DNA of 64,000 bases from Naegleria gruberi. Lineage: Eukaryota. The notes beneath the pieces are model-generated. The model was not told the DNA's origin. It worked only from the letters and a program-made list of their open reading frames with translations, and made no database searches. Made by a program: the position numbers and the translations under genes. Numbering within the stretch: the stretch's first letter is position 1; every line of letters begins with the position of its first letter. Shown here one piece after another: positions 244-32,113 of this stretch. The stretch lies in the NCBI GenBank assembly GCA_000004985.1, contig GG738912.1; one strand, given 5' to 3'.

Positions 244-2058
244 ATGATCACCCCAATCTTAGTTGGTATCGATTATGGAACTACCAATACCAAAGCAAGC
301 ATTCGTGAAGAATACATCTGTAACCAACCTAAATGCATTGAATTTGTAAGTGGTAAAAACTATCTTTCATCAGAGATTGCCATCAACAAGAAAGATAAAT
401 CTTGCATTGTTGGCTTGGAGGATGGCGAATCAACATATTACAAGATTGCCGAATCCAAACGATTGATTGGCAGAGCCTACAAGTCTGTAATGAATAAGGA
501 AGATTTTAGTACAAGACTTGGTTACCATGTTGCAAATGTTGATGGAATGGCAAACATTAGAATCAACTCAACCACAGATGGTAGCAATGATGTTGAAATT
601 ATTGATATCGATCCAAGATTAGTTACTGCTGACATTCTTAAAAAAGTCAAAAAGCATATCATTGATACCAACAACTATCCAGATGATACAATTGTTCAAG
701 CTGTGGTTACTGTCCCAGCTAATTATGGATATAGTCAGAAATCTGCAACAATGGAAGCTGCCGAGTTGAGTGGATTGCAAGTTCTACTGTTAATCCCAGA
801 ACCAACAGCAGCTGCACTTGCTTTCTTAGATTCCAAGAAATTCTCTGATGGTTATTATCTTGTAATTGACTTTGGTGGTGGCACTCTCGATCTCTCACTT
901 GTCCATCTGGAAGGTAAGAAAGTCATTGTAAAGAAAGTGTTTGGTAACATGTTTTTGGGAGGAGGAGATGTCGATCAAGCCATTGCAGAAGTGTTGAAAA
1001 CCAAGATTGACCCAGCACTTGAAATTCCAGTTCAGATTGAGAACATCTTTAGTAAGACTACAGAAATTGTCAATTTCAACAATGCTATTCTAAAGAAAAA
1101 ATCCAAAACACTCAAGGAAATGCTGAGCGAAGGAACCAACGAAGAAATTTCTTTGAGTATTAATTTGAAAGGTTATAGTGGTATGAAAATTGTCAATCTG
1201 TCATTTTCCAAACAAGAACTTTGTGCAGTTTTGAATTCAAAGTTTAGAGAACCTTTTGAAAAGGTCTTGAAAGAATGTAAGAATGGAATGGAGTGTGAAT
1301 TAGATGGTATTCTCCTTGCTGGTGGCTCATCTAAACTACCAACCATTGAATCTTGGACTAGAAATGTGTTTGAACAAGTTACAATTCATACACATGCACA
1401 TGATGTTCAAACTCTTGTTGCAAGAGGAGCTTTCTTAGCAGCAGAGTCAATCAGAAATGGCACAAATCAACTAGAGAATTTGCAAGTGATGGAAGAAGTA
1501 ACCGCAACCCATTTGGGAATTGAGACAAAGAATGTGGTGACTGATAAAGTAGAATTCACAACATTAATTCCAATGCACAGCCCTTTAAAAACTTCCTTTA
1601 CAAAGACCTTTACAAACGTTGTTGATGATCAAGAGAAAGCGAAAATTAGAGTATTGGAAAATTTGTCAGAATCTTTTGAAGATTCTACTGAAATATCCAG
1701 TTTGGTAATCAATATCATGAAAAGAAAGAAGGGAGAAACCAAGATTGATGTTACTTTTTCTGTTGATTTGAATGGTATCCTTCAGGTTGCCATTGTAGAA
1801 CAAGGAAGAGATTCTGATAATAAGCACGAAATCAAAACTACGTTGACCAATTTGTGGACTCCTGAACAAATAGAAGAGTTTCGTAAAAGAAAACATTTTA
1901 GTGTCCAAGAGGTAACTAAGGTTGCAGCACAACAAGTACCAAGCTTGAGTCAAAATCTTAGTAGTCAAATTCAATTTGACCTCTTAGATGAATTATTCAA
2001 AGGTCCAAATAAGCAAGTTCTCATTTTGGATACAGGTGCCAATAAACCATTATTATAA
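244..2058 (+). CDS. Hsp70-family (actin-like ATPase fold) protein, divergent member
   Basis: 604-aa ORF starting at ATG 244. Carries the Hsp70 phosphate-1 motif (VGIDYGTTNTKASI), the phosphate-2 motif (LVIDFGGGTLDLSL) and the adenosine motif (ILLAGGSSKLP). It does not read as a canonical cytosolic Hsp70. No intron is evident. Confidence 0.6.
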   Translation: MITPILVGIDYGTTNTKASIREEYICNQPKCIEFVSGKNYLSSEIAINKKDKSCIVGLEDGESTYYKIAESKRLIGRAYKSVMNKEDFSTRLGYHVANVDGMANIRINSTTDGSNDVEIIDIDPRLVTADILKKVKKHIIDTNNYPDDTIVQAVVTVPANYGYSQKSATMEAAELSGLQVLLLIPEPTAAALAFLDSKKFSDGYYLVIDFGGGTLDLSLVHLEGKKVIVKKVFGNMFLGGGDVDQAIAEVLKTKIDPALEIPVQIENIFSKTTEIVNFNNAILKKKSKTLKEMLSEGTNEEISLSINLKGYSGMKIVNLSFSKQELCAVLNSKFREPFEKVLKECKNGMECELDGILLAGGSSKLPTIESWTRNVFEQVTIHTHAHDVQTLVARGAFLAAESIRNGTNQLENLQVMEEVTATHLGIETKNVVTDKVEFTTLIPMHSPLKTSFTKTFTNVVDDQEKAKIRVLENLSESFEDSTEISSLVINIMKRKKGETKIDVTFSVDLNGILQVAIVEQGRDSDNKHEIKTTLTNLWTPEQIEEFRKRKHFSVQEVTKVAAQQVPSLSQNLSSQIQFDLLDELFKGPNKQVLILDTGANKPLL

Positions 2059-9722: not shown

Positions 9723-11123
9723 TTATTTGAAAACAAGAACAACATTCTTTTCTGCAAAACCACAGTAAAGTTCTCCAGTAGCACTGTCCAAAGCAATTAC
9801 CATTCCACTTCCAGCATGATATAAACCAAACTTGTAAGGACTATTCTCATTCATGAAAGAAGTGAGACAGGTTCCATCTTCCTTCATAGAATCAATACCA
9901 TATTGAACACAATAAATCTTATTAGTATTTGGTTCAAATTGTGGACATTTTTGAGTGTAGGTTCTTTGCTTGTCAAATTTCTTTAAGATTTTTCCATTCT
10001 TGTTAGTTACCAAGATGGTATCTTCATTGATAAGGACAAGTTCGTTATTGACATTAATACCCATACAATCAATTCTGCTCAATCCAAAAACATTGTTTCC
10101 TTGAATGTTTTGTCTCAAAGTCTTGATAATTTTACCAGTGTCAGGTGACAAAAAGTCAACTCCTCCATTTTGAGCAATGTAAATAGTACCATCAACCTTA
10201 TCAACAGCCATACTATAAATCATACCAGTGCCATCATTTTCCCAGAATACCATCTTACCATTTCTAGAAATTTTCACAATGGTTGATGCACAACATCTGT
10301 CAATAACATAAACAAGTGCCTTATCCTTGGTATCATAACAGAGATGCATATTATCTCTGTCTTGAGGTTCCTTGAAGTGATTCTTCAACATTTTAGTCTT
10401 TAAATCAAATTCAAAGAAAGTCCAACGATCAGCAACGAAAATGGTACGATTGACTGGATCAATTGCAAGACCAGCAACTCCAGCAAATTCAAAATTAAAA
10501 TCTTCATTCTCACCCAAAGTACCAATATGATTATAATTTCCACTGAATGGAACAAAACCACCAGAAGAAGCAGCAACAGATGAACCAGAACCACCAGAGG
10601 AAGAACCTGCACTAGTCAACTCTGAAACATCATTAACATGAGATTTGGTCTTGTTTGATGAATTGTGCAATTTCAAGTGATTTTCACACATGTGAGCATT
10701 ACATTGTTTACAATGATGAGTTGCCAAAACTTTCTCTTCATCATCAGTCAAACACTTGTCACAATTCTTTGCAGCAGAAACTTGACTTTCAATTGGAACC
10801 ACTGAAGAAGCATGTGATTTAGTCTTATTGGAAGTATTGTGAAGATTCAAGTGGTTTTCACAAAAGCACATATTACAGCTAGGACAGGAATGAGTAGCTG
10901 GAATAGTTTCGTCTTCATCCTTTAAACATTTATCACAGTTTCGAATAGTGGATGCTGCAGATAATTCAACAAGATCACTAACGTGTGATTTAGTCTTGTT
11001 TGAAGTATTGTGAAGATTTAAGTGATTATCACAATAGTTCATTTTACATTGCTTGCAGTTGTGAGTTGCAGGCACAGTTTCGTTTTCGTCCTTCAAACAT
11101 TTATCGCAATTGACAACTTTCAT
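9723..11123 (-). CDS. B-box-type zinc finger (x3) plus beta-propeller (NHL-like) protein
   Basis: 466-aa ORF from ATG 11123. It has three near-identical ~50-aa repeats, CDKCLKDEDETIPATHSCPSCNMCFCENHLNLHNTSNKTKSH, with B-box-like C/H spacing. These are followed by a Ser/Gly linker and a repetitive beta-strand-rich C-terminal half (GTIYIAQNGG, GELYCGF) consistent with an NHL or six-bladed propeller. Confidence 0.55.
   Translation of the reverse strand: MKVVNCDKCLKDENETVPATHNCKQCKMNYCDNHLNLHNTSNKTKSHVSDLVELSAASTIRNCDKCLKDEDETIPATHSCPSCNMCFCENHLNLHNTSNKTKSHASSVVPIESQVSAAKNCDKCLTDDEEKVLATHHCKQCNAHMCENHLKLHNSSNKTKSHVNDVSELTSAGSSSGGSGSSVAASSGGFVPFSGNYNHIGTLGENEDFNFEFAGVAGLAIDPVNRTIFVADRWTFFEFDLKTKMLKNHFKEPQDRDNMHLCYDTKDKALVYVIDRCCASTIVKISRNGKMVFWENDGTGMIYSMAVDKVDGTIYIAQNGGVDFLSPDTGKIIKTLRQNIQGNNVFGLSRIDCMGINVNNELVLINEDTILVTNKNGKILKKFDKQRTYTQKCPQFEPNTNKIYCVQYGIDSMKEDGTCLTSFMNENSPYKFGLYHAGSGMVIALDSATGELYCGFAEKNVVLVFK
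10630..11123 (-). repeat. three tandem ~150-bp coding repeats (B-box fingers) inside gene 9723-11123
   Basis: The three copies are highly similar at DNA level (…gtgattttcacacatgtgagcattacattgtttacaatgatgagttgcc… versus …gtggttttcacaaaagcacatattacagctagga…). Confidence 0.6.
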
Positions 11124-11442: not shown

Positions 11443-12735
11443 ATGGCAAACTTTTCATTTAGTTTGAATGGTGTATTGAACAATCTACCAAGCTCCTTGT
11501 CATCCATTGGATACAAGGCTAAGAATGCACTCAGTAGAAAGTTAAAAAGTTCAAACGAAGGTAAACGAAACCCACATGCACCTTCAGATAACGATTTTGA
11601 TGAAAATGACTCATCAAATAATAACAATAATAAGAAACCATCCTCTTCATCATCCAACAGATTGGATAATTCATCATCTTCAAAGGCAACTATCAAATCG
11701 TCCAATAAGAAACCAAGAGTAAAGAAACCGAAAGTTGAAGTCAAGTATTGTGATAAATGCTTGAAAGATGAAGAAGAAAAAGTCCAAGCCACTCATTATT
11801 GCTCTGGTTGTTCCATGAATTATTGTGAAGCACACATAAATCTTCACAATTCGGCCAACAAGACGAAAGGTCATGCCGAAAGTGGTCAAGTTTCAAGTCT
11901 AGCTGCTGCACATGTTCCACTTGCTCTCTTACCAGACTTGCAACAAATTTGTGTGCTTCCCAATCCAGATAGCCCATTTTCATGCACAATTGACCATGGT
12001 TATGGTTCTCTATTCGTTCTTGATGGAGATATGTTTATGGAATATGATTTAACAACTAAAGAATTGGTAAATCATTTCAGAGAACCTCAAGAAAGACGTG
12101 CAGTTCGTGTCTGTTACGATTCCAATGATGATACTCTCATTTATGTACTTGACAGATGTGCTTCACATGATATTGTAAAAACTTCAAGAGATGGAAAGAT
12201 GATTCATTGGCAATTGGATGATCAATCACCAATTCGTGATATGAGTGTCGATCCAATTGATGGAACTATTTATACAGTTCAAAATGATGGAATTGTTTGT
12301 GTGAAGGATGGAAAAGTTTCGTCCACATTGAGAGAAAACATTAATGGAAATAACATGTTTGTGGACACCTATGACAATATTTGTGGAGTGACAACTAATC
12401 ATGAAAATAACTTGATAGTTGTTTCGAATAGATATATTATTACTTGTAATAAGAAGGGAAAGATATTTAGCAAAGTTGAAAAGGTCAGTTCTGGTGCAAG
12501 TAAGAGAATTCATTTGGATCCAAGTGGAGAACACATGTACTTTATTGGAGACAGTGGAATTGAGTCAACCAAATTGAATGGAACTTGTCGTACAGAATTT
12601 AGAAATGACAAGGTTGACTATGATCATAAATTTGAAGTTTCTAGAGGAGAAGGAATAGACATGGCCATTGATTTCACATCTGGAGAAGTTTATGTTGTCA
12701 ATCCTCACAAATCAAAAGTTCAAGTATTCAAATAA
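11443..12735 (+). CDS. B-box-type zinc finger (x1) plus beta-propeller (NHL-like) protein, paralog of 9723-11123
   Basis: 430-aa ORF from ATG 11443. The N-terminus is Ser/Asn-rich. It has one B-box-like finger (CDKCLKDEEEKVQATHYCSGCSMNYCEAHINLHNSANKTKGH) and a C-terminal propeller-like half collinear with its neighbour's (GTIYTVQNDG, GEVYVVNPHKSKVQVFK). Confidence 0.55.
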   Translation: MANFSFSLNGVLNNLPSSLSSIGYKAKNALSRKLKSSNEGKRNPHAPSDNDFDENDSSNNNNNKKPSSSSSNRLDNSSSSKATIKSSNKKPRVKKPKVEVKYCDKCLKDEEEKVQATHYCSGCSMNYCEAHINLHNSANKTKGHAESGQVSSLAAAHVPLALLPDLQQICVLPNPDSPFSCTIDHGYGSLFVLDGDMFMEYDLTTKELVNHFREPQERRAVRVCYDSNDDTLIYVLDRCASHDIVKTSRDGKMIHWQLDDQSPIRDMSVDPIDGTIYTVQNDGIVCVKDGKVSSTLRENINGNNMFVDTYDNICGVTTNHENNLIVVSNRYIITCNKKGKIFSKVEKVSSGASKRIHLDPSGEHMYFIGDSGIESTKLNGTCRTEFRNDKVDYDHKFEVSRGEGIDMAIDFTSGEVYVVNPHKSKVQVFK

Positions 12736-16414: not shown

Positions 16415-17302
16415 ATGGTAGCATCAAGCGAAGAAGAACACGATCAGGAAACATCAACAACAGCTGCATCACTTTCGATATCAAGTGTTGTTGGTGGAAT
16501 TAAAAATTTACTTGGTGAATTATTTGACAAGGCATCAACTGAAGAAATTGATCATGTAATTGCATTGACAGGATTTAATGCATTGAAAGCTTATACATGT
16601 TTATTGGAAAAGTATCCTCCACCTACTGTTCCGGTGTCAAATGTTGTGGAACAGCAGCCATCTGTCAGTAGTCAAAATATTCCCCTGACACAACAATATT
16701 TTCAACCATCACAATTACCAATTCAACATGTTCATCAAAATATTGATCCGATGATGATGAGCCAATTTATGATGCAAAATCAATTTATGCCTGTCGGATG
16801 TCAACAATTCAATCAAATTCCTCAATTTCAACAACAGCAACCTATGAATCAATCTACATGTATTTTGATGAATGATGGAATGGGAAGACAATATTATATG
16901 ATTTCTGATCCAAGTCAAATGTCAAGTAATAATTCAATGATGGTCAGCAGTGGAATTACAACTTCCAACCCAACTCCTCAACCATCTTCTACATCAATTA
17001 CAGCATCTACTTCAATTGCAACTCAAACATCTACTTCTAATACACCTGCCACATCAACGCAACCTGCCACCACTCATGTCACCATTGACAAGAAGAAGAA
17101 ATGTAAAGATTGGGACAAATGTACTCAAACTGGCGACCAAACACACGTTGAGAAATTCTTCCATCCATGCAGAAATGGATCTCATTGCAAGAATATTGAA
17201 AATGTCATTCATCAAAATAGATTTGTTCATCCTTGTAAAGATGGAAAGCAATGTAAGAAGAAGGATGATAATTTACACAATATTATGTTTACTCATAAAT
17301 AA
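16415..17302 (+). CDS. Q/S/T-rich protein with a possible UBA-like N-terminal helix bundle and C-terminal PBZ-like fingers
   Basis: 295-aa ORF from ATG 16415. The EEIDHVIALTGFNALKAYTCLLEKY segment is UBA-like, though this is weak. The C-terminus carries CKDWDKCTQTGDQTHVEKFFHPC, CRNGSHCKNIENVIHQNRFVHPC and CKDGKQCKKKDDNLHNIMFTH, which have PBZ-like spacing. Confidence 0.45.
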   Translation: MVASSEEEHDQETSTTAASLSISSVVGGIKNLLGELFDKASTEEIDHVIALTGFNALKAYTCLLEKYPPPTVPVSNVVEQQPSVSSQNIPLTQQYFQPSQLPIQHVHQNIDPMMMSQFMMQNQFMPVGCQQFNQIPQFQQQQPMNQSTCILMNDGMGRQYYMISDPSQMSSNNSMMVSSGITTSNPTPQPSSTSITASTSIATQTSTSNTPATSTQPATTHVTIDKKKKCKDWDKCTQTGDQTHVEKFFHPCRNGSHCKNIENVIHQNRFVHPCKDGKQCKKKDDNLHNIMFTHK

Positions 17303-17369
17303 AATCAATGCTTTTGCTTGTCAAATTGTGAATTCACTTGTCAAATCATCGTTTTACCTGTCAAAAAAA

Positions 17370-19100
17370 ATGTTACCTTATCGTCCGCCTATTGTTCAGC
17401 CAATTCAACAGTTAATTCCGGTGTATTCCTACATGCCATCAACTTCATCATCGCCTGCCACTCCAACCAATGATCAATCACATCAATCAACTGCCACAAA
17501 TCAAAATAATCAGCAAAGTATTTGCAAATTTGGTCCAAATTGTCCCAACTATGACCAATGTACCTCTCTTCATCCATGCCGTTACGGAGAAGATTGCAGA
17601 AGAATTTCAAGAGTTGTTAACAAGACTCAGAAATTACAAGACATTGTTCACTGTTCCAAATGTTTCCATATTTGTAAATGGGGTGAGAAGTGCAAATATT
17701 TGAATGATGAAGAACATGTAAATATGTTTCTTCACACGTGTACTAAATCAAATTGTAAAGATGAAGTTCACAAAGAGAGATTTAGACATAAATGCAAATA
17801 TGGAAAAAATTGTCGTTCCTTAGATGGAAAATATGAAAATTGGGAACATTATGTCAAGTTTATTCATCCTAGGACTAATGGAGTTATGAGACATGTAGAA
17901 AAACAAATGTATTATCTATTTTCTGAAATATCTAATGATGAAAGCAATTCAAAAACTGCTCAATCTGACATTCCTGGTTTGACACTTGTAAAGAAGAGTA
18001 CACTCAAACCACAAGTGAAAGATAGAAAACGATCTGCCAAATGTGAAATTTCCACAATCGATGGTAAATCCACAGAGTATTATTTCATTGGGTATGAGAA
18101 GGGTGCTGGAAATTCGTCAACTTCAAAAGTCGTTTGTTTTAAAGAGACTGGAAAGGGAGTTTTTGAAGGTCATATTAAGGTAGTTGCAGAATCTAGTTGT
18201 GTATTTGATGGAAATGCAAAGATTGAACAACCTTGGTATCATTCAAAAGTTAATGTTTATAGAAATACTGTCATTAGTCAAGTATTTGATGAAATTTTGA
18301 AACAAGGTTTGAATGGAGTGAGCCCAAATGCTACCTATATCGATGTTATGAAATACATGATAGAACAGCATGATATTCCAATATTTATTGTTGGAGGAGC
18401 TGTCAGAGATGTCATTCGAGAAGTGATTGTTGAAAAAAAGACCAATGCCTTACAAATTATGAATAATATTAAGGATATTGATATTGGATTTGGTTGTGAT
18501 CCACAGACATTTCATGGACGCCTCACTCGAAAATATAAATCAGGTGTTCCAATTCCTGGACCTCGTGGACTAGTTCAAGTAGGAAGCTCCAATGGTTCTG
18601 ATCTATTCCTGGAAGGTAAAGCCATTAATGGTTTAAATAATGATAATAAGAGTGTGAAAGCACAAATTGCTCAATGTTATGGAACTAATCTGAGAGGAGA
18701 AAACATTTGTAGAGATTTCACATGTAATTCTCTTTGGTATGATCCAATCAATAAGTGCATTATTGATACTATTGGAAATGGGCAAGGAATTAAGGACGTA
18801 ATTTCAAAAAATTTACGAATTCCTGTAAAACCAAGAGATTGGGAATTTTGGGTTTCTGGCAATCCAACAAAGTTGATGAGATTTTACAAATTCCTTTTGA
18901 AGGGATATTCTGCAGATGCCAAAACTAAATCATTCATAATTGAACAAGTTAAAAGTGGTAAATTTATTAGTGATATGGAAATTAGAACTCAATACACAAA
19001 AGGAATTGGAAAAGCCAACAAAGCAAGGTTGGAGAATTTGTTGAGAAGTGATTTTGGTGATCAGTTTTACAATAATTATTTCGCTAATCATATTAAATAA
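17370..19100 (+). CDS. PBZ-like zinc fingers fused to a class II nucleotidyltransferase (CCA-adding / poly(A)-polymerase head domain)
   Basis: The true ATG is at 17370. The track ORF from 16950 is an out-of-frame over-extension through the upstream gene. Three finger repeats are present (CKFGPNCPNYDQCTSLHPC; CKWGEKCKYLNDEEHVNMFLHTC; CKYGKNCRSLDGKYENWEHYVKFIHP). Nucleotidyltransferase motifs follow: GGAVRD, DIDIGF (the DxD motif) and CRDFTCNSLWYDP (the RRD/ERDFTINAL motif of CCA-adding enzymes). Confidence 0.6.
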   Translation: MLPYRPPIVQPIQQLIPVYSYMPSTSSSPATPTNDQSHQSTATNQNNQQSICKFGPNCPNYDQCTSLHPCRYGEDCRRISRVVNKTQKLQDIVHCSKCFHICKWGEKCKYLNDEEHVNMFLHTCTKSNCKDEVHKERFRHKCKYGKNCRSLDGKYENWEHYVKFIHPRTNGVMRHVEKQMYYLFSEISNDESNSKTAQSDIPGLTLVKKSTLKPQVKDRKRSAKCEISTIDGKSTEYYFIGYEKGAGNSSTSKVVCFKETGKGVFEGHIKVVAESSCVFDGNAKIEQPWYHSKVNVYRNTVISQVFDEILKQGLNGVSPNATYIDVMKYMIEQHDIPIFIVGGAVRDVIREVIVEKKTNALQIMNNIKDIDIGFGCDPQTFHGRLTRKYKSGVPIPGPRGLVQVGSSNGSDLFLEGKAINGLNNDNKSVKAQIAQCYGTNLRGENICRDFTCNSLWYDPINKCIIDTIGNGQGIKDVISKNLRIPVKPRDWEFWVSGNPTKLMRFYKFLLKGYSADAKTKSFIIEQVKSGKFISDMEIRTQYTKGIGKANKARLENLLRSDFGDQFYNNYFANHIK

Positions 19101-19142: not shown

Positions 19143-22100
19143 TTAATTTTTTCTATTCCTTTTTGGTTTAGAAACAAATGTTGGGACTCTTGTGAGTGAT
19201 TGTTTTTCATATTCAAACTCTATCGCGGAAAAATGGTTATATTGTTCACCAAAGTATCCTCTAGCTTCTTGGTTTCCATTTTTAGCAGCTTTCAACAACC
19301 AGAGTGTTCCTTGTGTTACATCTGTTTCACATAATAACTTTCCCAACGCCAACTCTGCATCTGAATTTTGTTGTTGAGCAGCTTTGAGCAACCATGAATG
19401 TGCAAGCTTAATGTTTTTCGGGACAACCTTATCAAGTCCATACATATAAATCATTCCAAGAGAATATTGTGCATTTGAATTTCCTTGATTAGCAGATTTG
19501 CAATACCACTCAAAAGCAAGTGAATAATTGGGTGTTTGGATGATATTAAGTGTATGATGATAAATGCAAGCTACTTCATATTGGGCTTCATTATTTCCAA
19601 GTTCAGCAGCTTTTTGATAGTAATCCCATGCTTTTTGATTATCCTTTAATTCTTTATAGAGATATCCTAAACGAAAGAGTGCTTCTGAATTCTTCACATC
19701 AGATTCTACTGCTTTTAGATACCATATAATGGCCTCATGTTTATCCAATAAAACACCATCACCCAGCTCATACATTTCTCCAATATCATATTGTGAATCA
19801 GAATCATTGAATTTTGTAGATGCTTCCAAATACAATTCGTGTGCTTCTTGATAATTACCCTTATTAAAAAACATTCTAGCCACATTTCTAAGAGCTTCAA
19901 TATGCGTACTTATTATTTCAGCTTCTCTAAAAATAAGTTTTCTATATTCTTCATCAATTTCCATTCTTTTTAAATTCATATTATTACCTAATATAATGTG
20001 TTCGCCAGAAACTAAGATATCTGTAGTAATAGTAGAAAGCTTTTGCTTGGATAAATCGAGTGCTTTTTGGTAAAGTTTAAATGCCAACAATTCATTACTT
20101 GATATTCCATTATCACCATCTTCAAGCATTGATGCAACATAATTAATGGCAGGAATATAGTTACTATCATATACTTTCTTAAATAGCTCAAAAGTTTCGG
20201 TATTGTTTGTTTTGGAATAATGAATAGCTTGTTGGAATAATTTCTCCCCTTTATCATTACTAACTTCCAAAATCATATCCAATTGACTTGCAGAATATAA
20301 AACTCCATATTCCACGCCTTCCATTTCTAAAGTATTAACGTTCATCTCATATTGGTTTCTTCTTTGAGCATCTTCTATAAAATAAGAAATCAATTTTCTT
20401 TTTTGAGAATCATTATTTAACACTAAAGAGTAGAGAGTGTAATTATTTTGCTCTGATTTCTCCATTTCTAAAATGTGAGAGGAGAAGTTTGGGATTAGAA
20501 TAAATCTGCTTTTGTCTTTGATTAAATGGCCCATTTTTAAACCAAATTGTGTGACAGATTTTAGAGAGGAATTTAGAGAAATAATATGCACCTCCTTGTC
20601 CTTAAGAAATAATACAAAAAATCTCCAAAAAAGGTCCATCATTTCCGAGACCATTTGAACTCGCTGTTTCTTTTTGTTAATCTGTTTGAAAATAGTTTGA
20701 AATAATTCCTTATAAATATCTTCCATCCTTTTTTGATAATCATTTGGTTTCGTGTTGTTTTTGAAAATATTTGCTATCTTGTACTTGATAAATGTGATTA
20801 AATGTTGTCTGTCATCTACACGTGCTATTTGAGAATTTGGGTCTTTAAACTCTAATTTTTGAGAAACTAACAATTGCATACTATCATATAATTTACCAAC
20901 TAGAGAAACACTGCGCCTCAATGGACCATGTTTGTTCTTGTGGTAGTGTGGAAAGCCAGGGAATTTTTCAAGTAGTTCTAAATCTTGTGCATTTACAGCA
21001 ACACTGTAGTTGCCTTTTTTGGGAGCGTCGATAGCCCTGTTGATGAGAGTACATAATCTTTCCATGTTATTCCAGTATTTTCGTGACCATTGATTTCCAT
21101 AAAAATCAGCAAACAAATGACGAATTCCAATCAAGTCTTTGAATATATCAGGATCGAATGATCGTGTCTCATTGTAGTCGTCATCAAAAGATCCTGGATC
21201 GAACTCTACTAATGATTCTACTAGTTCGTTATCCCAACATGCAAAATATTGATCTCCATCTAGATCAGATCCTGCAATCATATTTGTTATTGGTCTACTT
21301 CCTTTTGTAGGAAAAACAATAACATCGTAAAGAAAATTCAATTCAGGAATGTTGACTGCCTCTAATTTTCTCAGGTCACCACGATGTAAGCATGGCTCTT
21401 TAGTGACAATCACAGTATTCTCAATTACATTCTTCTTCTTTGGATCATTTAGAGAGGAAACTTGAATAAATATTTGACCTTCTTTGAGTACTCCGAAAGG
21501 ATCTGCTATTCCGTACAACCTTCTAGAACTGTAACAAGGAATTCTCAAGGAGAGTATTTGGTTTCTGTAGGGGCCTGTCAGGAAAGCAAGCTTTTTGCTT
21601 TTTAGAATGGAAAGAACGTTAAGAGAGGCATAGTCTCCTTGTTTTACGTACTGATCAAAAACCTTGTCAATGTCCGATTCTGAAATATAGTTTTTCATCA
21701 AATTTTCAATATGTTTACAGGCCTTTTGGTTTAGTATTTCGAATATCTTTCCTTGTTTTGTTTCATCTTCACACCCTTCTAAAATGTGCATAATTGTCGA
21801 ATTGATTCTAGCAAAATCACAGGGGCTTGAATAACCTACGATGCATAAATTATTAATTATATCATCATCAGTGTTTGGGTGTTCAATTTTCATCATTGAT
21901 TTCCTTAGCACTAAATGGTGACCATACACCTTTTCCGCATTTGGATGGATGTAAACCATGCCTTTGGCTCCTCTAAATCTTATTTGGTATGCACAGGGAA
22001 GATATTCATTGACTAGAAACTCTACTCCATCATTTTCTTCGTAGATACCATCTTCATCCATCGATTGTTTGCTCTGGTATTTCAATAAATTTTTAGATTT

Positions 22101-23297
22101 ACGAACAATTTCATAAACTTTCATAGCCAATTCAAGAGAAATAAATCCACATCCATCGGTGAAAAGTCCCTCATCATTAATAACAGTGTATTCTGAAACT
22201 CCAATAGTAGGAATAACAGGAGTATTAAATAAAGCCAGTCTTAAACTTTGCTTTAATTTGTTATTCTCAAAATAAAGATCCCTGTTCAATGTATCTGGAA
22301 TGGCCCATGTTTTTACATCATGTATTGATAGGGAAGAATTGTTTGGAAGTTTGGAAAGATCAGGACACATGTAAATAAATCGATAAGAATGCATTCCACT
22401 CGTATTTTGACACAGTTTCTGGAATGTAAATCCAGCAATATGTAAAGGCTCTTCTCTTTCTATATATGGCTCTATTAGCCTGAATGATTGGTTATCCATT
22501 AACACTCTGCTAATGTGCTTTTGGTCTTTCATTAATTTCAATGTTTCCTCATCGAATTTTCCTTCCTTGAATTGATTTAAATATTGTCTCAATAATACTA
22601 TATCTCCATGATCCTCTGATTTTGATTCCATAGCCACTTGATCCTTCAATTCAATATTATTTAAAATTTCAGGGTGCTCTCCAGTAGATTCAAGAATCAT
22701 TTGAGATTTGAAACCCATTCTCAAAAAGCTAAATCCAACATTCAACACTGTATTCACACCAAATTTTTGTCTAAACCTACTCTGTAGCCATCTATCTTGT
22801 TGTGAGCTGTTGAATCGAATGGCAAGAATGGGTGATATCTTTGGTTTGTAAAAACAATATAAGGTTGCTGTTCTAGTCCTAAACATTGTCTCTGATTCGT
22901 CCAATTCTTCTGTTGTTTGCTTACTTGGAGATGAAAGGTTTAAATTCTGATGATCCTCTTCCTTCTCTGTTATTGTTGCTAACAACCACCGATGAAGAGC
23001 CTCTAATCCTATCGGATAGGCAATCACTGCCATCCTAGAAACTCTCTTTAATATTTCATAGCGATCGACGAAGGACATTCCACAATACTTTTCCCCTCTC
23101 ACATTTTTGAAATTAAATTCCAAATATTTGGTACAATCATCAAAATTTCTAATGATCGGAATGGATTCAATCATGTAATAAGTTGCCAATAAATCCTTTA
23201 CGTAATTTTCATCTTGTCTATTCATAAACTTTAACTCTTCAAGTTGTTGAATCTTTTCAAGCTTTGAGAACCCAGAAACAAAAGACAATACGGACAT
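19143..23297 (-). CDS. cellular RNA-dependent RNA polymerase (RDR family) with C-terminal Sel1-like repeats
   Basis: 1384-aa intron-less ORF from ATG 23297. The catalytic RDR signature GSDLDGDQYFACWD is at about 21252-21293. The C-terminal ~300 aa (about 19143-20030) hold at least five Sel1/TPR-like repeats (AQYEVACIYHH…, AQYSLGMIYMYGL…, AELALGKLL…). Confidence 0.8.
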   Translation of the reverse strand: MSVLSFVSGFSKLEKIQQLEELKFMNRQDENYVKDLLATYYMIESIPIIRNFDDCTKYLEFNFKNVRGEKYCGMSFVDRYEILKRVSRMAVIAYPIGLEALHRWLLATITEKEEDHQNLNLSSPSKQTTEELDESETMFRTRTATLYCFYKPKISPILAIRFNSSQQDRWLQSRFRQKFGVNTVLNVGFSFLRMGFKSQMILESTGEHPEILNNIELKDQVAMESKSEDHGDIVLLRQYLNQFKEGKFDEETLKLMKDQKHISRVLMDNQSFRLIEPYIEREEPLHIAGFTFQKLCQNTSGMHSYRFIYMCPDLSKLPNNSSLSIHDVKTWAIPDTLNRDLYFENNKLKQSLRLALFNTPVIPTIGVSEYTVINDEGLFTDGCGFISLELAMKVYEIVRKSKNLLKYQSKQSMDEDGIYEENDGVEFLVNEYLPCAYQIRFRGAKGMVYIHPNAEKVYGHHLVLRKSMMKIEHPNTDDDIINNLCIVGYSSPCDFARINSTIMHILEGCEDETKQGKIFEILNQKACKHIENLMKNYISESDIDKVFDQYVKQGDYASLNVLSILKSKKLAFLTGPYRNQILSLRIPCYSSRRLYGIADPFGVLKEGQIFIQVSSLNDPKKKNVIENTVIVTKEPCLHRGDLRKLEAVNIPELNFLYDVIVFPTKGSRPITNMIAGSDLDGDQYFACWDNELVESLVEFDPGSFDDDYNETRSFDPDIFKDLIGIRHLFADFYGNQWSRKYWNNMERLCTLINRAIDAPKKGNYSVAVNAQDLELLEKFPGFPHYHKNKHGPLRRSVSLVGKLYDSMQLLVSQKLEFKDPNSQIARVDDRQHLITFIKYKIANIFKNNTKPNDYQKRMEDIYKELFQTIFKQINKKKQRVQMVSEMMDLFWRFFVLFLKDKEVHIISLNSSLKSVTQFGLKMGHLIKDKSRFILIPNFSSHILEMEKSEQNNYTLYSLVLNNDSQKRKLISYFIEDAQRRNQYEMNVNTLEMEGVEYGVLYSASQLDMILEVSNDKGEKLFQQAIHYSKTNNTETFELFKKVYDSNYIPAINYVASMLEDGDNGISSNELLAFKLYQKALDLSKQKLSTITTDILVSGEHIILGNNMNLKRMEIDEEYRKLIFREAEIISTHIEALRNVARMFFNKGNYQEAHELYLEASTKFNDSDSQYDIGEMYELGDGVLLDKHEAIIWYLKAVESDVKNSEALFRLGYLYKELKDNQKAWDYYQKAAELGNNEAQYEVACIYHHTLNIIQTPNYSLAFEWYCKSANQGNSNAQYSLGMIYMYGLDKVVPKNIKLAHSWLLKAAQQQNSDAELALGKLLCETDVTQGTLWLLKAAKNGNQEARGYFGEQYNHFSAIEFEYEKQSLTRVPTFVSKPKRNRKN

Positions 23298-23479: not shown

Positions 23480-24667
23480 TTACCACCAAAATACTATGTC
23501 AGTATTAGTCTGTTTGGAAAATTCATCACTAATTTTGTTTCCACTCACGTCTAATAATTGTAAATTCTTCATTTGTGTGATTGCCTTAAGTCCTTCATCC
23601 GTTATTTCATTGTTATTTACATATAAAATAGATAATTTCTCTAATTCACTAATGTAGTGTGCTCCTTCGTCTTGAATATCATTGAGTGAAATATCTAGTT
23701 CAGTTACGCGTTGCATTTTGCTGATAAATTTTGCTCCAGTTGGGCCAATTTCGCAATTATTGATCAAAAGTGTTGTCAATTGTTCAAGTTCACCGATTGA
23801 TTCTGCTCCTTGTTGTCCAATTAAATTGAAACCAACATTGATAAATGTCAAGCCTTTCAGTTGGCTAATTGAATTGGCTCCTTCCTCTCCAATTCCATTA
23901 CTACTAACATCTAGTTTGGTTAAATTCTTCATATGGCTTATTGAATACATTCCTTCATCACCAATGTTATTGCTGCCAATGAAAAGCTCTCTTAATTGAT
24001 CTAATTGTGCAATGAGTTCTGCTCCTTGTATTCCAAGATCATTATCATTAATTCTGAGAGAGGTTAAATTTCTCATCCCACTAACTACCTCCACATCCAA
24101 ACATTTGAGCTTAGTGTATGACATGTCCAGAATAGTCAATTGCTTCATATCTTTAATTTTACAAACTGATTCAAAACTAAATCTATTTCCAGAAACATTA
24201 AGTTCTTTCAATTGCTTCATTTGTGAAATTACACTGATTTCTCTATCAGAAATTTTACAAAACACAACATGAAGCCTCCTTAAATGCTCGCATCGTGCAA
24301 TGCTCTCTATTGCATCAATAGTTATTTCATTCTTGTTATTAATAACAAGAGAATTCAGCCTTTGTGCCATTTCAATTCCATTCCAAAATCTTTCATTCTG
24401 AATTCTTGCTCTGACTTCAATATTCGTAAAATATGATAACCATTCAAAATGTTCAATATTAGAATGTCTATTAATTATTACTATTGAAAGAATCGATCGT
24501 TCCCTAATTACATTCATCCATTGTTTAGAAATTAATAAACAATTCTTCAATAGGAATTTGTGATCCGCGTCTACAAAGGAGAGAATTTCAAAAATTACAT
24601 CATCAGAAAATAATTCTTGATGTTGTGATTTGATGCGGGTGGAATCTTCTACGTGATTGTTGAGCAT
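23480..24667 (-). CDS. RI-like leucine-rich-repeat protein with F-box-like N-terminus
   Basis: 395-aa ORF from ATG 24667. The N-terminus (FEILSFVDADHKFLLKNCLLISKQWMNVI) is F-box-like. It is followed by ~24-aa repeats of the type LxxLxxLdISxNxIGdEGAxxISxLxx. It is a paralog of the array at 52335-53769. Confidence 0.6.
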   Translation of the reverse strand: MLNNHVEDSTRIKSQHQELFSDDVIFEILSFVDADHKFLLKNCLLISKQWMNVIRERSILSIVIINRHSNIEHFEWLSYFTNIEVRARIQNERFWNGIEMAQRLNSLVINNKNEITIDAIESIARCEHLRRLHVVFCKISDREISVISQMKQLKELNVSGNRFSFESVCKIKDMKQLTILDMSYTKLKCLDVEVVSGMRNLTSLRINDNDLGIQGAELIAQLDQLRELFIGSNNIGDEGMYSISHMKNLTKLDVSSNGIGEEGANSISQLKGLTFINVGFNLIGQQGAESIGELEQLTTLLINNCEIGPTGAKFISKMQRVTELDISLNDIQDEGAHYISELEKLSILYVNNNEITDEGLKAITQMKNLQLLDVSGNKISDEFSKQTNTDIVFWW

Positions 24668-26104
24668 TTTTTTTTAATTTTTTTAAAAAAACATTAATGG
24701 AAATTTCAGAGACCAAATAACTTGAACGATCAAAGGCAGAATCTACAACTGAGAATGACTTGGTTTGAGAATCGTATCCAGTGGCCAAAACGAAATGTTC
24801 AGTCTTCTTTCCAGGTGGTTTGATTAGTTTCAAGATGACCATTCTTCCTTCACACAAGTTTCGAATAGTTACAGACATGTCAGTGGTTATCCCTGAGAAT
24901 TTCACACCAAATTGTTTGTTAATGGATGCCCAGATAAATAAGTTTCCATCCTTGAAACCACGATTTTTCTTCAACCATTCGTTCATTTCTTTTGGTGTCC
25001 ATTCGGTTCTTCCCAAACCTTTCAATCCAGAAGTAATGGCCGAAAGAAGACAACCAGCTTTACAAATTGTTGAACTTCCACTTCCTAATTTGAGAGATCC
25101 CCATCTTGTATCACATTGCTTAAAGACTGTGAATTGAGTATGAACATATCCTGGATAACATTCCTTTTTTGGAGGATTAGGTTTTATGGATATTTCTGGT
25201 TTTGGAGGAATTGGAATAGGTCTTGGAGATTCTTGTGGAATTGGAACAGGATTAGGTCTAGGAGAAGGTCTAGGATCTGGATGTGGTTTAGGAGAAGGAA
25301 CTGGTGGCACAGGTTTTGGTGATTCATGTGGCACTGGTGGAACAGGTTTTGGTGAAGGGATTGGATTTGGAGGAATTGGCTTTGGTGAAGGAATTGGAAT
25401 TGGTGGAGTTGGAGGATTCGGTTGGGGTGGATTTGGAATTGGTGGGACTGGATTTGGACTGGAGGAATTGGAATAGGTCTTGGTCCTCTACAACATGGTC
25501 TGGCACAGTTGTTTCCTTGTTGTGGAATTTTCAAATCCAAATTGACATTGACGTTTTGTCTACTTCCTCCATTGGAAGATGCTGAGCTGGAGGAAGAAGC
25601 AGAGGCAGATGCAGGTTGTTGGATAATGATTGTTTGAGGAGGTGGTATAATTGGTTTAATCATTGGAACATTGAGAATGATATTTTGAGGAGGGAAGAAA
25701 CACTTAGGTTTCTTGCAAGGTTTAGTTGGTTTTCTAATTGGTTTCTTACATGGTTTCTTTGGTTTCTTTCCAATCACATGGACAATAAATCCAGGACTCT
25801 TGTTATTTCTACACTTGAGTCTTCTAATATTGGATCTAATCTTTCGAGATTTGGACGAAATTCTTTCAGTGTCCAAAGTAATCACTTGGACACTTCTTCT
25901 TTCATGATTTGCTGAGTCGCTTGCCAACACAGCAGCACTAAAGAAACAAATTAACAATAGTGTGGCCAACAAGAAAGCTGTTTTCACAATCAAATTGCTG
26001 AACATTTTTTTGATGGTTTTGGTCAATTGGCTTGAATCTCCTAGAAGAAATAGGTTTCGAATGGTTGAGTAGTTTCTGATATCATCACAGAAACCTTGAC
26101 TCAC
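24603..26104 (-). CDS. secreted Pro/Lys-rich protein with C-terminal papain-fold (peptidase C39-like) domain; reading frame disrupted
   Basis: The upstream ORF (25184-26104) has a signal/TM segment (AFLLATLLLICFFSAAVLAS), KKP/PKKP repeats, poly-Ser and PRPIPIPP. The downstream ORF (24603-25334, open upstream to about 25487) continues the PxP repeats and then a globular domain with Cys (QCDTRWGS…TICKAGCLLSAITS) and His (TEHFVLATGYD) motifs. The two frames can only be joined by a 1-nt shift in a C-run near 25447-25487. Confidence 0.4.
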
Positions 26105-29886: not shown

Positions 29887-31443
29887 CTAATGAGTACTTT
29901 CAAATATTACTTTGGGTTTCTTAGATTTTGATTGTACATAAAGGATGCCATCTGTATCAAGTCCAAACGTGAGTGAAATATTACTAGAAGATAACTCTGT
30001 TATCTCAGTAATCTTTACAATTCCAATCAGCTCATTATCACTTGCTTTTTTCGAATCACCTTCATATATTTTGAGTGAAACTGCTTTCTTTTGATTGTTT
30101 GGATTTGGCGGGAGGGAGAATTCTCTTTCTGAACTACAGGGAATGGAATTGTCCTTTTTAAGGAGTATCATTAAATCTCCTCCTATACTAATCTCACATC
30201 CAATGTTTCGGCTTGTAACTTCAATGAGGAGAAGATCTTTTTCAAAATTTGCTAATATACCACCTTGGATAGCAGCTCCAAAAACAACTGGATTTGGATA
30301 AATAGGTCTTGGATGGATGGATTTACAAAAATAGGTTGTAATGAGTTGTTTTAGTTTTGGTATTTCACATCCTCCTCCAATAATTATTGCATCGGCTATT
30401 TCTTCCTTGGAACAATTTGCTCTTCGAATGACCTTATCAGCAAGGGATAAACATTTTGAAAAGAAATCAGTATTCAAATCCTCAAATTTAGAACGAGTTA
30501 GCACAATCTCAAAATCAATTCCATCCATTAGTGATTTGATAGATAGTTGTGTTTGCAATTCAGTAGATAATTTCTTCTTGGCTTCCTCGCATGCAACTTG
30601 CATCTTCCTCATTGAAACAGGATTCTCCTGTAGTCGTTTCTTGAATAATTTATAAAATTCCTCACAACAATAGCTCACTAAACTTTCGTCTAGCTTTGCA
30701 CCACCATGGTTAGGGAGACCATCACTACTTTTTGTATCCACAACTCCATTGTCCACCAAGAACACTGAAGCAGAGCATCCTGACCTTCCCAAATCAAATA
30801 CGAAAACCCTCTTTTCCCCTCTGTATTTCCAAATATACTGGAAGCAAGCTGCAGATGTATCATGAACGAGTCTACTGTTTGTCACTCCAATACTTTCCAC
30901 GACTTTCTTCATTTCAATTCTCTGATGATTCGAAAAGTAATTCGGAATTGAAACCACCAAATCCGTCACTGCTCGTTTCAAATATCTTTCAGCATCCTCC
31001 TTCAATTGTTTAAGAATTAATCCAATCATTTCATTAACAGATATTTCCTCATACTCCTCCTCTTTACAAACACTCAAACGAATTGTCTTGTCCTGCTTTC
31101 TAATAATTCTGAATGGCCACTCATTACTTTTCAATATTAATTCGTCATCTTCATCATCACAAGCCTTTCCAATTAATTGTTTAAAATCCCAGAATAAACA
31201 ATATGGATCCTCCGATTTACTATAAAACTCCAAAGCCTCCTCTCCAATTAATATTCTACTATTACTCATAGATGAGTCATCCAATAATGAAGAGGAAGAA
31301 ACAAAGGCTATACACGTTGGAGTTTCATAATTTCCCAATTTATTTGGAATGTATTCAACATGATCTTCGAGATAGACAGCCACTCGACAATGTGATCCTC
31401 CGAAATCAATGGCAACAATTCCGTGATTGAGATGAGAAAACAT
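29887..31443 (-). CDS. Hsp70-family (actin-like ATPase fold) protein, second divergent member
   Basis: ATG at 31443; the track start is a TTG. Motifs are IVAIDFGGSHCRVAV (phosphate-1), RVFVFDLGRSGCSASVF (phosphate-2) and IIIGGGCEIPKL (adenosine). It is not a close paralog of 244-2058. Confidence 0.5.
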   Translation of the reverse strand: MFSHLNHGIVAIDFGGSHCRVAVYLEDHVEYIPNKLGNYETPTCIAFVSSSSLLDDSSMSNSRILIGEEALEFYSKSEDPYCLFWDFKQLIGKACDDEDDELILKSNEWPFRIIRKQDKTIRLSVCKEEEYEEISVNEMIGLILKQLKEDAERYLKRAVTDLVVSIPNYFSNHQRIEMKKVVESIGVTNSRLVHDTSAACFQYIWKYRGEKRVFVFDLGRSGCSASVFLVDNGVVDTKSSDGLPNHGGAKLDESLVSYCCEEFYKLFKKRLQENPVSMRKMQVACEEAKKKLSTELQTQLSIKSLMDGIDFEIVLTRSKFEDLNTDFFSKCLSLADKVIRRANCSKEEIADAIIIGGGCEIPKLKQLITTYFCKSIHPRPIYPNPVVFGAAIQGGILANFEKDLLLIEVTSRNIGCEISIGGDLMILLKKDNSIPCSSEREFSLPPNPNNQKKAVSLKIYEGDSKKASDNELIGIVKITEITELSSSNISLTFGLDTDGILYVQSKSKKPKVIFESTH

Positions 31444-32113
31444 TTTTTTTAATGGTTGATCCAATTTTAAAAGTTTACAATTTTAAATAATTTAATTGTT
31501 TGTGATATATGATGATACTAAATTCTGATGATTGTAAGAATGCATTCATTTTGTATTGATATTAAAGAAAATTTTTAATAATTAAGTGTTGTAAACAACT
31601 GATACCAAAATGGATTGGAACTAACTTTGGGAATTTTAATTTACGCATGAATTTCACAATTCAAGGTTATTTGCATCATTTTTCGGTTACTCAGTATTTT
31701 ATACAATGAATTGTAAAATGATCAAATAGTTTACAATAGCCGATTGCAACTTTGAAATATAACTTCCAAAATGATTTAAAGATGAAAGCAAGCATACACC
31801 ATGAATCTGTATTATTCAACATCTCTTTCTGAATCTACCATAGAAATCAAGGTCATCACAGGTCTTGCAGGAAGTGACTGATTTCAAGCCTTCTTTAAAA
31901 CAATCAGAATTAATAATATAATTAAAACATTAATAAACAAAATTATTTTTAATGGAACCAGGTTAGTAATTGTTTGAGATTTCTCTAATTGAGCTGTACC
32001 ATCGGAACAAAATTCGAACATTTATTCTCCAAAAAGAAAATGAAATTCGAAACAATAGACACAGCTCAATGATTATATAATGTACAAATTGATGCAGATA
32101 ATATACAATTCAT

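What the first reader, a model, noticed from the sequence alone, without database searches (positions are those of the whole stretch)
19143..23297. Cellular RdRP fused to a C-terminal Sel1-repeat array
This is an intact 1384-aa RDR-family polymerase with the DLDGD catalytic loop. The N-terminal helicase/RRM module seen in some RDRs is absent. The protein instead ends in about 300 aa of Sel1/TPR-like repeats, a protein-interaction scaffold more usually seen on kinases, ERAD adaptors and bacterial effectors. An RdRP-Sel1 fusion could tether small-RNA amplification to a specific partner or membrane. The gene is intron-less and sits next to fast-evolving LRR and secreted-protein genes.
Basis: partly seen in the sequence, partly recalled or inferred. 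Interest (0 to 1): 0.6.

Follow-up and report, generated by a model that had tools for sequence, protein, structure and literature searches.

The report
Naegleria RNA-dependent RNA polymerase with Sel1 tail
This is a real, intact gene of the amoeba Naegleria gruberi that joins an RNAi-type RNA-copying enzyme to a Sel1-repeat docking arm; the combination is already in databases but undescribed, and it belongs to a small amoeba-specific family whose members carry different docking arms.

Summary
Window 19143..23297 (-) is one uninterrupted 1384-aa ORF, identical over its full length to an NCBI 'predicted protein [Naegleria gruberi]'. Residues 282-806 match Pfam RdRP (265 bits), and DLDGD lies at 678-682. 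An AlphaFold model of residues 1-1100 matches QDE-1 and RDR2. Residues about 1016-1352 form a Sel1-like repeat solenoid (Pfam Sel1 122 bits; the fold matches LpnE, LceB and c5321). No helicase or RRM is detected.

New here: the gene belongs to a Naegleria-specific RdRP clade (bootstrap 100/100). Its members carry different C-terminal modules:
- Sel1 (this gene and one N. gruberi paralog)
- Sel1+TLDc (a third paralog and its metagenomic ortholog)
- LRR (two metagenomic relatives)
- none (N. lovaniensis)

The related amoeba Willaertia has RdRP+TPR+MYND. Among the 150 nearest RdRP cluster representatives, only the Naegleria proteins carry Sel1.

Most likely function, inferred and not shown: it synthesises dsRNA for Dicer, and the Sel1 array docks a partner protein.

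This is a new variant of a known kind, of moderate interest, with no functional data.

The parts
19143..23297 (-). Complete single-exon gene encoding 1384 aa plus stop. It is the Naegleria gruberi RDR-family RdRP with a C-terminal Sel1-like repeat array.
   Evidence: ORF listing. 100% identity and coverage to an NCBI N. gruberi predicted protein that UniRef names RNA-dependent RNA polymerase.
22455..23210 (-). N-terminal region, aa 30-281. It is a family-specific alpha/beta domain plus a helical linker. No RRM or helicase is detected.
   Evidence: No Pfam family matches this region. phmmer with aa 1-285 hits only the Naegleria-clade proteins P0002-5, P0008 and P0009. Invariant residues within the family are listed. 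The AF2 model has pLDDT 75-96 for aa 40-110 and 140-200.
20880..22454 (-). RdRP catalytic region, aa 282-806, matching Pfam PF05183 and containing the double-psi beta-barrel core.
   Evidence: Pfam 265.2 bits. phmmer matches maize and Arabidopsis RDR2 at E 1e-21 to 1e-20 and QDE-1 at E 1e-16. AF2 pLDDT is mostly above 90. Foldseek matches QDE-1 and RDR2 at E 3e-24 to 2e-20.
21252..21266 (-). Catalytic loop DLDGD, aa 678-682 (Asp678, Asp680, Asp682).
   Evidence: Translation. D680, G681 and D682 are invariant and D678 and L679 nearly invariant across 39 diverse RdRPs. The loop aligns to the DLDGD of RDR2.
20322..20879 (-). Helical and mixed region after the Pfam domain, aa 807-992. It is probably equivalent to the neck and head domains of QDE-1 and RDR2.
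   Evidence: AF2 predicts helices at 799-897 and a small beta/alpha unit at 902-985. Foldseek alignments to QDE-1 extend over 900-1085 columns. The motif SE(F/M)(L/M)xxFWR is conserved in the family.
19242..20252 (-). Sel1-like repeat (SLR) solenoid, aa 1016-1352, with about 9 helical hairpins. Two hairpins lie at 1016-1100. A poorly predicted insert follows at about 1101-1115. A confident 7-hairpin array then runs from 1129 to 1352, and within it repeats 1165-1200, 1203-1235, 1236-1273, 1274-1311 and 1312-1341 are read by eye.
   Evidence: Pfam Sel1 122.3 bits in 5 stretches. phmmer matches the Legionella Sel1 protein 8sxq at E 3e-41. AF2 pLDDT is 89-98 over aa 1129-1350. Foldseek matches c5321 at E 9e-14, and LpnE 6deh with target-normalised TM-score 0.68 and rmsd 3.8 A. 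Sequence shown.
19146..19241 (-). C-terminal tail, aa 1353-1384. It is predicted disordered and ends in a basic patch, KPKRNRKN.
   Evidence: Sequence. AF2 pLDDT is below 50 for the last 15 residues. Reading the basic patch as a nuclear-localisation signal is inference only.

Best explanation
This is a genuine, probably catalytically active, cellular RDR-type RNA-dependent RNA polymerase of Naegleria gruberi. A solenoid of about nine Sel1-like helical hairpins is fused to its C-terminus.

Shown here:
- One uninterrupted gene carries an intact RDR core (all signature motifs, including DLDGD) followed directly by a well-formed Sel1-like array.
- The gene belongs to a Naegleria-specific RdRP clade whose members share the N-terminal domain, the core and the head domain.
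- Those members carry different C-terminal protein-interaction modules: Sel1, Sel1+TLDc, LRR, or none. Willaertia relatives carry TPR+MYND.

Inferred from what is established for RDRs in plants, fungi, nematodes and ciliates:
- The core copies single-stranded RNA into double-stranded RNA, which the Naegleria Dicers cut into siRNAs for Argonaute.
- The Sel1 array does not act on RNA. It serves as a built-in docking platform that binds a partner protein or directs the polymerase to a site. Other lineages achieve this with separate accessory subunits, such as the Hrr1 and Cid12 partners of Rdp1, the Rdn and Rdf partners of Tetrahymena Rdr1, or the Pol IV partner of RDR2.
- Different paralogs would then be wired to different partners or templates through their different C-terminal modules.
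For: RDR identity:
- Pfam RdRP scores 265 bits.
- PDB sequence hits are RDR2 and QDE-1.
- The AF2 model has pLDDT 79 and pTM 0.81.
- Foldseek matches QDE-1 and RDR2 at E about 1e-24 over 800-1085 columns.

Likely activity:
- D678, D680 and D682, together with Q438, R440, K445, G446, P635 and D641, are conserved in an alignment of 39 diverse RdRPs.

Sel1 array:
- Pfam Sel1 scores 122 bits.
- AF2 pLDDT exceeds 90 across the array.
- The fold matches LpnE, LceB, c5321 and SEL1L.

The fusion is real and maintained:
- The NCBI model is identical to the ORF.
- N. gruberi paralog P0002 has RdRP+Sel1. Paralog P0003 and its metagenomic ortholog P0004 have RdRP+Sel1+TLDc.
- P0003 and P0004 are 60.5% identical, without gaps, over the 200-aa Sel1 region. 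This is similar to the head domain (65%) and the N-terminal domain (64%).

Module swapping:
- RdRP-LRR arrangements occur in L002 and L003.
- RdRP+TPR+MYND occurs in Willaertia.

RNAi context:
- N. gruberi Dicers are described in the literature (PMC4791657; PMC10328071).
- Dicer and Argonaute candidates are listed for N. fowleri (PMC13315211).
Against: - There is no functional, expression or small-RNA evidence for this gene or for RNAi in Naegleria. The 2026 review read treats the pathway as only predicted.
- No partner of the Sel1 array is known or predictable here, and the neighbouring genes give no conserved clue.
- N. lovaniensis relatives lack the array, so it is not essential to the family's core function.
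- The full-length protein could not be modelled because it exceeds the 1200-aa limit. Intramolecular packing of the array against the polymerase, which would suggest autoregulation, cannot be excluded.
Confidence: 0.6

Rival explanations
1. The C-terminal repeats act as a sensor or autoinhibitory domain rather than a passive dock. As in NLR-type immune proteins, a variable repeat array (Sel1, LRR or TPR) would hold the enzyme off until it binds a non-self or stress ligand. The family would then be a set of inducible antiviral or anti-transposon polymerases.
For: A conserved enzymatic core is combined with interchangeable repeat classes among close paralogs and relatives: Sel1, LRR and TPR-MYND. 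The C-terminal region is far more diverged between paralogs than the core: 20-26% versus 48% identity between the window protein and P0002. The family is lineage-specific and duplicated.
Against: The one ortholog pair available (P0003 and P0004) shows ordinary conservation of the Sel1 region, 60% identity without gaps, and not hypervariability. There is no NTPase switch domain. No ligand or structural evidence exists. No relatives were found in viral contigs.
Confidence: 0.12
2. The Sel1 array is a localisation or self-assembly device. It would anchor the polymerase to a membrane or organelle complex, or drive oligomerisation, and would not recruit an RNAi cofactor.
For: Paralog P0003 and its ortholog P0004 add a TLDc domain after the Sel1 region. 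From general knowledge, not tested here, TLDc proteins bind the V-ATPase, SLR proteins such as SEL1L/Hrd3 work at membranes, and QDE-1 is a homodimer. The basic C-terminal patch KPKRNRKN could be a targeting signal.
Against: No transmembrane segment or signal peptide is evident in the sequence. The window protein itself has no TLDc domain. Nothing was tested.
Confidence: 0.15
3. The fusion is an artefact or a decaying gene. Either two genes have been merged by a missed stop or intron, or the polymerase is an inactive relic.
For: No transcript evidence could be retrieved. One N. lovaniensis relative (P0012) has lost the catalytic loop, so pseudo-polymerases do occur in the clade.
Against: The frame stays open for 1384 codons, with a chance probability of about 1e-46. 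The same domain order is found at three other independent loci. All catalytic signatures are intact. The Sel1 repeats are close to consensus and confidently folded. Base composition is uniform across the gene.
Confidence: 0.03

Closest known systems
Plant RDR2 (Arabidopsis 7eu0/7roz, maize 7w82/7w84) and Neurospora/Thielavia QDE-1 (2j7n, 5fsw, 7y7p)
   Same: They share the RDR catalytic core with the DbDGD loop and the double-psi beta-barrel fold. phmmer E-values are 1e-21 to 1e-16. Foldseek E-values are 3e-24 to 2e-20 over most of aa 1-1000.
   Different: Identity in the structural alignments is only 14-19%. There is no N-terminal RRM as in plant RDRs. The N-terminal domain is specific to the Naegleria clade. 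Neither reference enzyme has a C-terminal repeat array.
N. gruberi paralogs P0002 ('RNA dependent RNA polymerase [Naegleria gruberi]', RdRP+Sel1) and P0003 (RdRP+Sel1+TLDc), with metagenomic ortholog P0004
   Same: They share the N-terminal domain, core and head, followed by Sel1-type repeats. They form one clade with 100/100 bootstrap support.
   Different: Overall identity is only 31-34%. The paralogs' Sel1 repeats are much weaker, about 36 bits against 122 bits. P0003 and P0004 add a TLDc domain and a long N-terminal extension.
RdRP-LRR genes of a Naegleria-like organism (L002/P0005, L003/P0008), and RdRP+TPR+zf-MYND of Willaertia magna (KAL9647075.1, P0011)
   Same: They follow the same design: an RDR core and head followed by a C-terminal protein-interaction repeat module.
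   Different: The repeat class differs: RNI-type LRR, or TPR plus MYND fingers. The Willaertia proteins lie outside the Naegleria clade, scoring 214 bits or less against 511 bits or more within it.
Dictyostelid Rrp-type RdRPs with an N-terminal helicase (for example Acytostelium P0104, 2629 aa) and animal helicase-RdRP fusions (Mya arenaria P0006)
   Same: These are RDR cores fused to an accessory module.
   Different: Their accessory module is an enzymatic helicase at the N-terminus, not a C-terminal scaffold. They fall in a different part of the NJ tree.
Bacterial and eukaryotic Sel1-like repeat proteins (Legionella LpnE 6deh and LceB 8sxq, E. coli c5321 4bwr, SEL1L)
   Same: Same repeat sequence family and same solenoid fold.
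   Different: Those proteins are stand-alone or membrane-associated adaptors. Here the array is the tail of a polymerase. The best database Sel1 relatives are at most 37% identical, so no specific donor is identifiable.

Membership tests
Eukaryotic cellular RdRP (RDR family, Pfam PF05183) | Match to the RdRP profile above the curated threshold | tested here: met
   265.2 bits against a cutoff of 23.8, covering aa 282-806.
Eukaryotic cellular RdRP (RDR family, Pfam PF05183) | DbDGD catalytic loop with three aspartates, plus the conserved barrel motifs | tested here: met
   DLDGD lies at aa 678-682. D680, G681 and D682 are invariant, and D678, Q438, R440, K445 and G446 nearly invariant, in 39 RdRPs. 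The loop aligns with the RDR2 motifs.
Eukaryotic cellular RdRP (RDR family, Pfam PF05183) | Overall fold like QDE-1 and RDR2 (slab, catalytic double-psi barrels, neck, head) | tested here: met
   The AF2 model has pLDDT 79 and pTM 0.81. Foldseek gives E 2.9e-24 to QDE-1 and 3e-23 to maize RDR2 over 790-1085 aligned columns. Individual sub-domains were not mapped.
Eukaryotic cellular RdRP (RDR family, Pfam PF05183) | RNA-templated RNA synthesis and a role in siRNA production | not testable with these tools
   This needs a biochemical assay and small-RNA sequencing. No Naegleria data were found in the literature searches.
Sel1-like repeat (SLR) proteins (Pfam PF08238) | Several Sel1 repeats above the curated threshold | tested here: met
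   122.3 bits against a cutoff of 30.7, in 5 stretches. phmmer gives E 3e-41 to a solved Sel1 protein.
Sel1-like repeat (SLR) proteins (Pfam PF08238) | Alpha/alpha-hairpin superhelix fold | tested here: met
   AF2 predicts helical hairpins with pLDDT 89-98 over aa 1129-1350. Foldseek matches LpnE with target-normalised TM-score 0.68, and 6ork with 0.79 and rmsd 2.1 A.
Sel1-like repeat (SLR) proteins (Pfam PF08238) | Binds a protein partner | not testable with these tools
   No interaction data exist.
Plant-type RDR1/2/6 (RDR with an N-terminal RRM) | N-terminal RRM domain | tested here: not met
   No RRM family appears in Pfam even at E<=1. The N-terminal domain has relatives only in the Naegleria clade.
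Dictyostelid Rrp-type / helicase-RdRP fusions | N-terminal helicase domain | tested here: not met
   No helicase family appears in Pfam. Helicase-bearing relatives such as P0006 and P0157 are distant, at 221 bits or less.

The most novel reading that the evidence does not exclude
The heterolobosean RdRPs form an innate-immunity-like family. A conserved polymerase 'effector' would be gated by interchangeable C-terminal repeat 'sensors' (Sel1, LRR, TPR-MYND). Each paralog would switch on dsRNA and siRNA synthesis in response to a different viral, transposon or stress cue. This would be an NLR-style logic applied to RNAi amplification.
Probability: 0.1. Interest if true: 0.75.

Novelty: new variant of a known kind. 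Interest (0 to 1): 0.4.

Why it matters
In other eukaryotes, cellular RdRPs depend on separate accessory subunits to choose templates and to hand dsRNA to Dicer. How template choice is specified remains an open question. A family in which the same polymerase core is hard-wired to different protein-interaction modules gives a natural handle on that question, because the partner of each module should indicate what that paralog amplifies. Naegleria belongs to Discoba, a deep eukaryotic branch where RNAi is essentially unstudied outside trypanosomes. Gene-silencing tools are also wanted for its pathogenic relative N. fowleri. The practical value stays modest until expression, small-RNA or interaction data exist.

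Tried and rejected
- **Profile search for more family members.** A word-indexed profile search found no member beyond the first search. The exhaustive representative search was needed to find the N. lovaniensis, Willaertia and metagenomic relatives.
- **Bacterial origin of the Sel1 array.** The best database hits are unnamed Sel1 proteins at 37% identity or less. GC and GC3 of the Sel1 part (0.32 and 0.22) are in the range of the rest of the gene. There is no support for recent transfer, and the origin is left open.
- **Giant-virus or other viral origin.** No relative was found in IMG/VR.
- **More relatives in JGI metagenomes.** Only RdRPs at 31% identity or less were found.
- **Transcript or contig evidence by exact look-up.** The protein is not on record in the collection.
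- **AFDB fold search.** The library was unavailable.
- **Literature.** No paper combines Naegleria, RdRP and Sel1. The N. gruberi genome paper (Cell 2010) and Burroughs, Ando and Aravind (2014), which may list RdRP domain architectures, are not held. Prior mention of the fusion there cannot be excluded.
- **Single versus multiple gains of Sel1.** The order of branches inside the Naegleria clade is unresolved; the grouping of P0001 with P0002 has 12/100 support.
- **Functional link to the convergent neighbour.** The neighbouring gene has a PolyA_pol head domain. The adjacency is not seen at the paralogous loci. My guess that its Cys/His motifs are PBZ fingers got no Pfam support.
- **Full-length structure.** Not possible, because the protein exceeds 1200 aa.


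Full report
**1. The observation**

Window 19143..23297 (minus strand) holds one uninterrupted ORF of 1384 codons that starts with ATG. With the window's composition (33.6% G+C, stop-codon probability 0.073 per codon), the chance of such an open frame is about 10^-46. The product is identical over its whole length to a 1384-aa NCBI 'predicted protein [Naegleria gruberi]', which UniRef calls RNA-dependent RNA polymerase. The window is therefore N. gruberi nuclear DNA, and the public gene model is also intron-less.

Pfam results for the protein:
- RdRP (PF05183) scores 265.2 bits over aa 282-806.
- Sel1 (PF08238) scores 122.3 bits in five stretches, and several TPR models also match the C-terminal part.
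- No helicase or RRM model matches, even at E<=1.

DLDGD is at aa 678-682, nt 21252-21266.

**2. The polymerase part**

By sequence, the solved structures closest to aa 1-1100 are maize and Arabidopsis RDR2 (E 1.7e-21 to 1.4e-20) and QDE-1 (E 1.6e-16). In an alignment of 39 diverse RdRPs, D680, G681, D682, G596, P635 and D641 are invariant. D678, Q438, R440, K445 and G446 are nearly invariant. All of these are present in the window protein.

An AlphaFold2 model of aa 1-1100 built on that alignment has mean pLDDT 79 and pTM 0.81, with pLDDT above 90 through most of aa 270-700. Foldseek matches it to QDE-1 (E 2.9e-24) and RDR2 (E 3e-23 to 2e-20) over 790-1085 columns. The next matches, far behind, are a phage polymerase and then the multisubunit RNA polymerases. 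The region after the Pfam domain (aa 807-992) is included in these alignments, so it most likely corresponds to the neck and head of known RDRs.

The N-terminal 280 residues have no Pfam match. By phmmer they have relatives only among the Naegleria-clade proteins.

**3. The Sel1 part**

Residues 1016-1352 read as Sel1-type repeats. The best solved relatives by sequence are Sel1 proteins of Legionella, Oxalobacter and E. coli (E 3e-41 to 7e-29), followed by human SEL1L.

An AlphaFold2 model of aa 800-1384 gives about nine helical hairpins:
- two hairpins at aa 1016-1100 (pLDDT 86-90)
- a poorly predicted insert
- a continuous seven-hairpin array at aa 1129-1352 (pLDDT 89-98)
- a disordered tail ending in KPKRNRKN

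Foldseek matches this model to c5321 (E 8.9e-14), LceB, LpnE (target-normalised TM-score 0.68, rmsd 3.8 A) and SEL1L.

**4. Is the fusion real?**

Four points say yes:
- The frame is continuous and base composition is uniform across the parts.
- Two other N. gruberi genes have the same order: P0002 (RdRP+Sel1, 1235 aa) and P0003 (RdRP+Sel1+TLDc, 1745 aa).
- P0004, from an environmental assembly (ENA ERZ27315067), is a 66%-identical ortholog of P0003 with the same three domains.
- In that ortholog pair the Sel1 region is 60.5% identical with no gaps. This is comparable to the head (65%) and N-terminal (64%) regions, so the Sel1 region is maintained.

**5. The family**

An exhaustive HMMER search with aa 1-1100 against 1.84 billion cluster representatives found 3194 RdRP relatives. 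There is a sharp break in score: seven proteins at 268 bits or more, then 214 bits or less.

The high-scoring set consists of:
- the three N. gruberi paralogs
- N. lovaniensis C9374_011878 (P0009)
- metagenomic proteins; P0005 and P0008 were traced to the same ENA sample as P0004, while the source sample of P0010 was not checked

A neighbour-joining tree of the catalytic core groups these together with P0012, the tandem N. lovaniensis gene, in 100 of 100 bootstrap replicates. The order inside the clade is unresolved.

The nearest outside groups (56/100 support or less) include Willaertia magna, Adineta, Vermamoeba, Echinamoeba and Capsaspora. Labelled nematode, arachnid, fungal and dictyostelid RdRPs fall elsewhere in the tree. 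This is not a substitute for a proper phylogeny with reference RDR clades.

**6. Variable C-termini**

A Sel1-array HMM built from 51 Sel1 proteins hits only P0001-P0004 among the 161 RdRP-set sequences. Sel1 is therefore confined to the Naegleria clade within the 150 closest cluster representatives. Other clade members differ:
- In L002 and L003, the RdRP ORFs P0005 and P0008 are each followed at once by an overlapping ORF in another frame that carries LRRs (LRR_6 80.9 bits; LRR_4 44.5 bits).
- In L003 the second ORF begins with the family's head-domain motif. These are therefore most likely single RdRP-LRR genes split by a short intron or a frameshift.
- N. lovaniensis P0009 ends just after the head domain, with no repeats.
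- Willaertia P0011 and metagenomic P0013 and P0024 carry TPR and/or MYND fingers.

The pattern is a conserved polymerase joined to interchangeable C-terminal interaction modules.

**7. Origin of the Sel1 array**

The closest Sel1 proteins in the 5.8-billion-protein collection are unnamed and at most 37% identical. No donor can be named. No viral relatives of the polymerase were found.

**8. Mechanism**

What is shown: an intact RDR core, and a well-formed, conserved Sel1-like solenoid on the same polypeptide.

What is inferred from the established roles of RDRs and of Sel1-like repeat proteins: the enzyme makes dsRNA from RNA templates for Dicer, and the solenoid docks a protein partner or directs localisation. 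N. gruberi Dicers are described in the literature (PMC4791657; PMC10328071). A 2026 review lists Dicer and Argonaute candidates in N. fowleri and treats RNAi there as unproven (PMC13315211).

I give 0.6 to the docking-platform reading. The rivals are:
- a sensor or autoinhibitory role (0.12)
- a localisation or oligomerisation role (0.15)
- an artefact or dead gene (0.03)

The gene's neighbours offer no conserved functional clue.

**9. Novelty and score**

The protein and its Pfam domains are already in public databases. No paper in the searchable library mentions the combination. Two likely sources could not be read. RDRs with accessory domains are known, such as the RRM in plants and the helicase in dictyostelids and some animals.

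An RDR with a Sel1 tail, within a family that swaps Sel1, LRR, TLDc and TPR-MYND modules, is a new variant of a known kind. It is not a new kind of system. Interest is 0.4: a tidy, testable evolutionary observation without functional data.

Noticed in passing
window 16415..19100 (+): The convergent neighbour ends 43 bp from the RdRP stop codon. It carries a class-II nucleotidyltransferase 'PolyA_pol head' domain (PF01743, 34.5 bits). It also has repeated C-x5-C-x8-12-H-x5-H motifs: three in ORF 16415..17302 and two in ORF 16950..19100. An ATG at about 17370 may start the second gene. RdRPs elsewhere work with nucleotidyltransferases, but of another class, and the adjacency is not seen at paralogous loci. 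Pfam gave no zinc-finger family for the motifs.
   Followed up: partly
L002 2827..6941 and L003 440..4754: In a Naegleria-like organism from ENA sample ERZ27315067, two RdRP paralogs are each followed by an overlapping ORF in a different frame that encodes LRRs. These are probably single RdRP-LRR genes split by an intron or frameshift in the gene calls.
   Followed up: yes
P0009 / P0012 (N. lovaniensis C9374_011878 / C9374_011877): These are tandem RdRP genes. P0012 has lost the DLDGD loop (its sequence reads '...FPASCSDSTCMSLNKYFICWDQ') and scores only 92 bits against Pfam RdRP. It is a probable pseudo-polymerase sitting next to an intact copy.
   Followed up: partly
P0011 (Willaertia magna KAL9647075.1), P0013, P0024: These RdRPs are fused to TPR repeats and MYND zinc fingers (P0024 shows only a weak MYND match). 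This is another heterolobosean RdRP with a C-terminal interaction module.
   Followed up: partly
window 23480..24667 (-): The gene directly upstream on the same strand, 182 bp from the RdRP start, is an RNI-type LRR protein (LRR_6, 118.9 bits) with a weak F-box match. It has the same repeat type as the LRR tails of the metagenomic RdRP paralogs. Given how common such genes appear to be, this is probably coincidence.
   Followed up: no
window 24603..26104 (-): Two overlapping ORFs in different frames probably form one gene with an intron. The upstream ORF has a signal-peptide-like hydrophobic segment followed by Pro/Lys-rich sequence. The downstream ORF has proline-rich repeats followed by a Peptidase_C39_2 domain (44.3 bits).
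   Followed up: no
window 244..2058 (+) and 29887..31464 (-): Two divergent Hsp70-family genes lie in the same 64-kb window (212 and 292 bits). Two ORFs with weak ANCHR-like B-box matches lie at 9723..11123 and 11443..12735.
   Followed up: no
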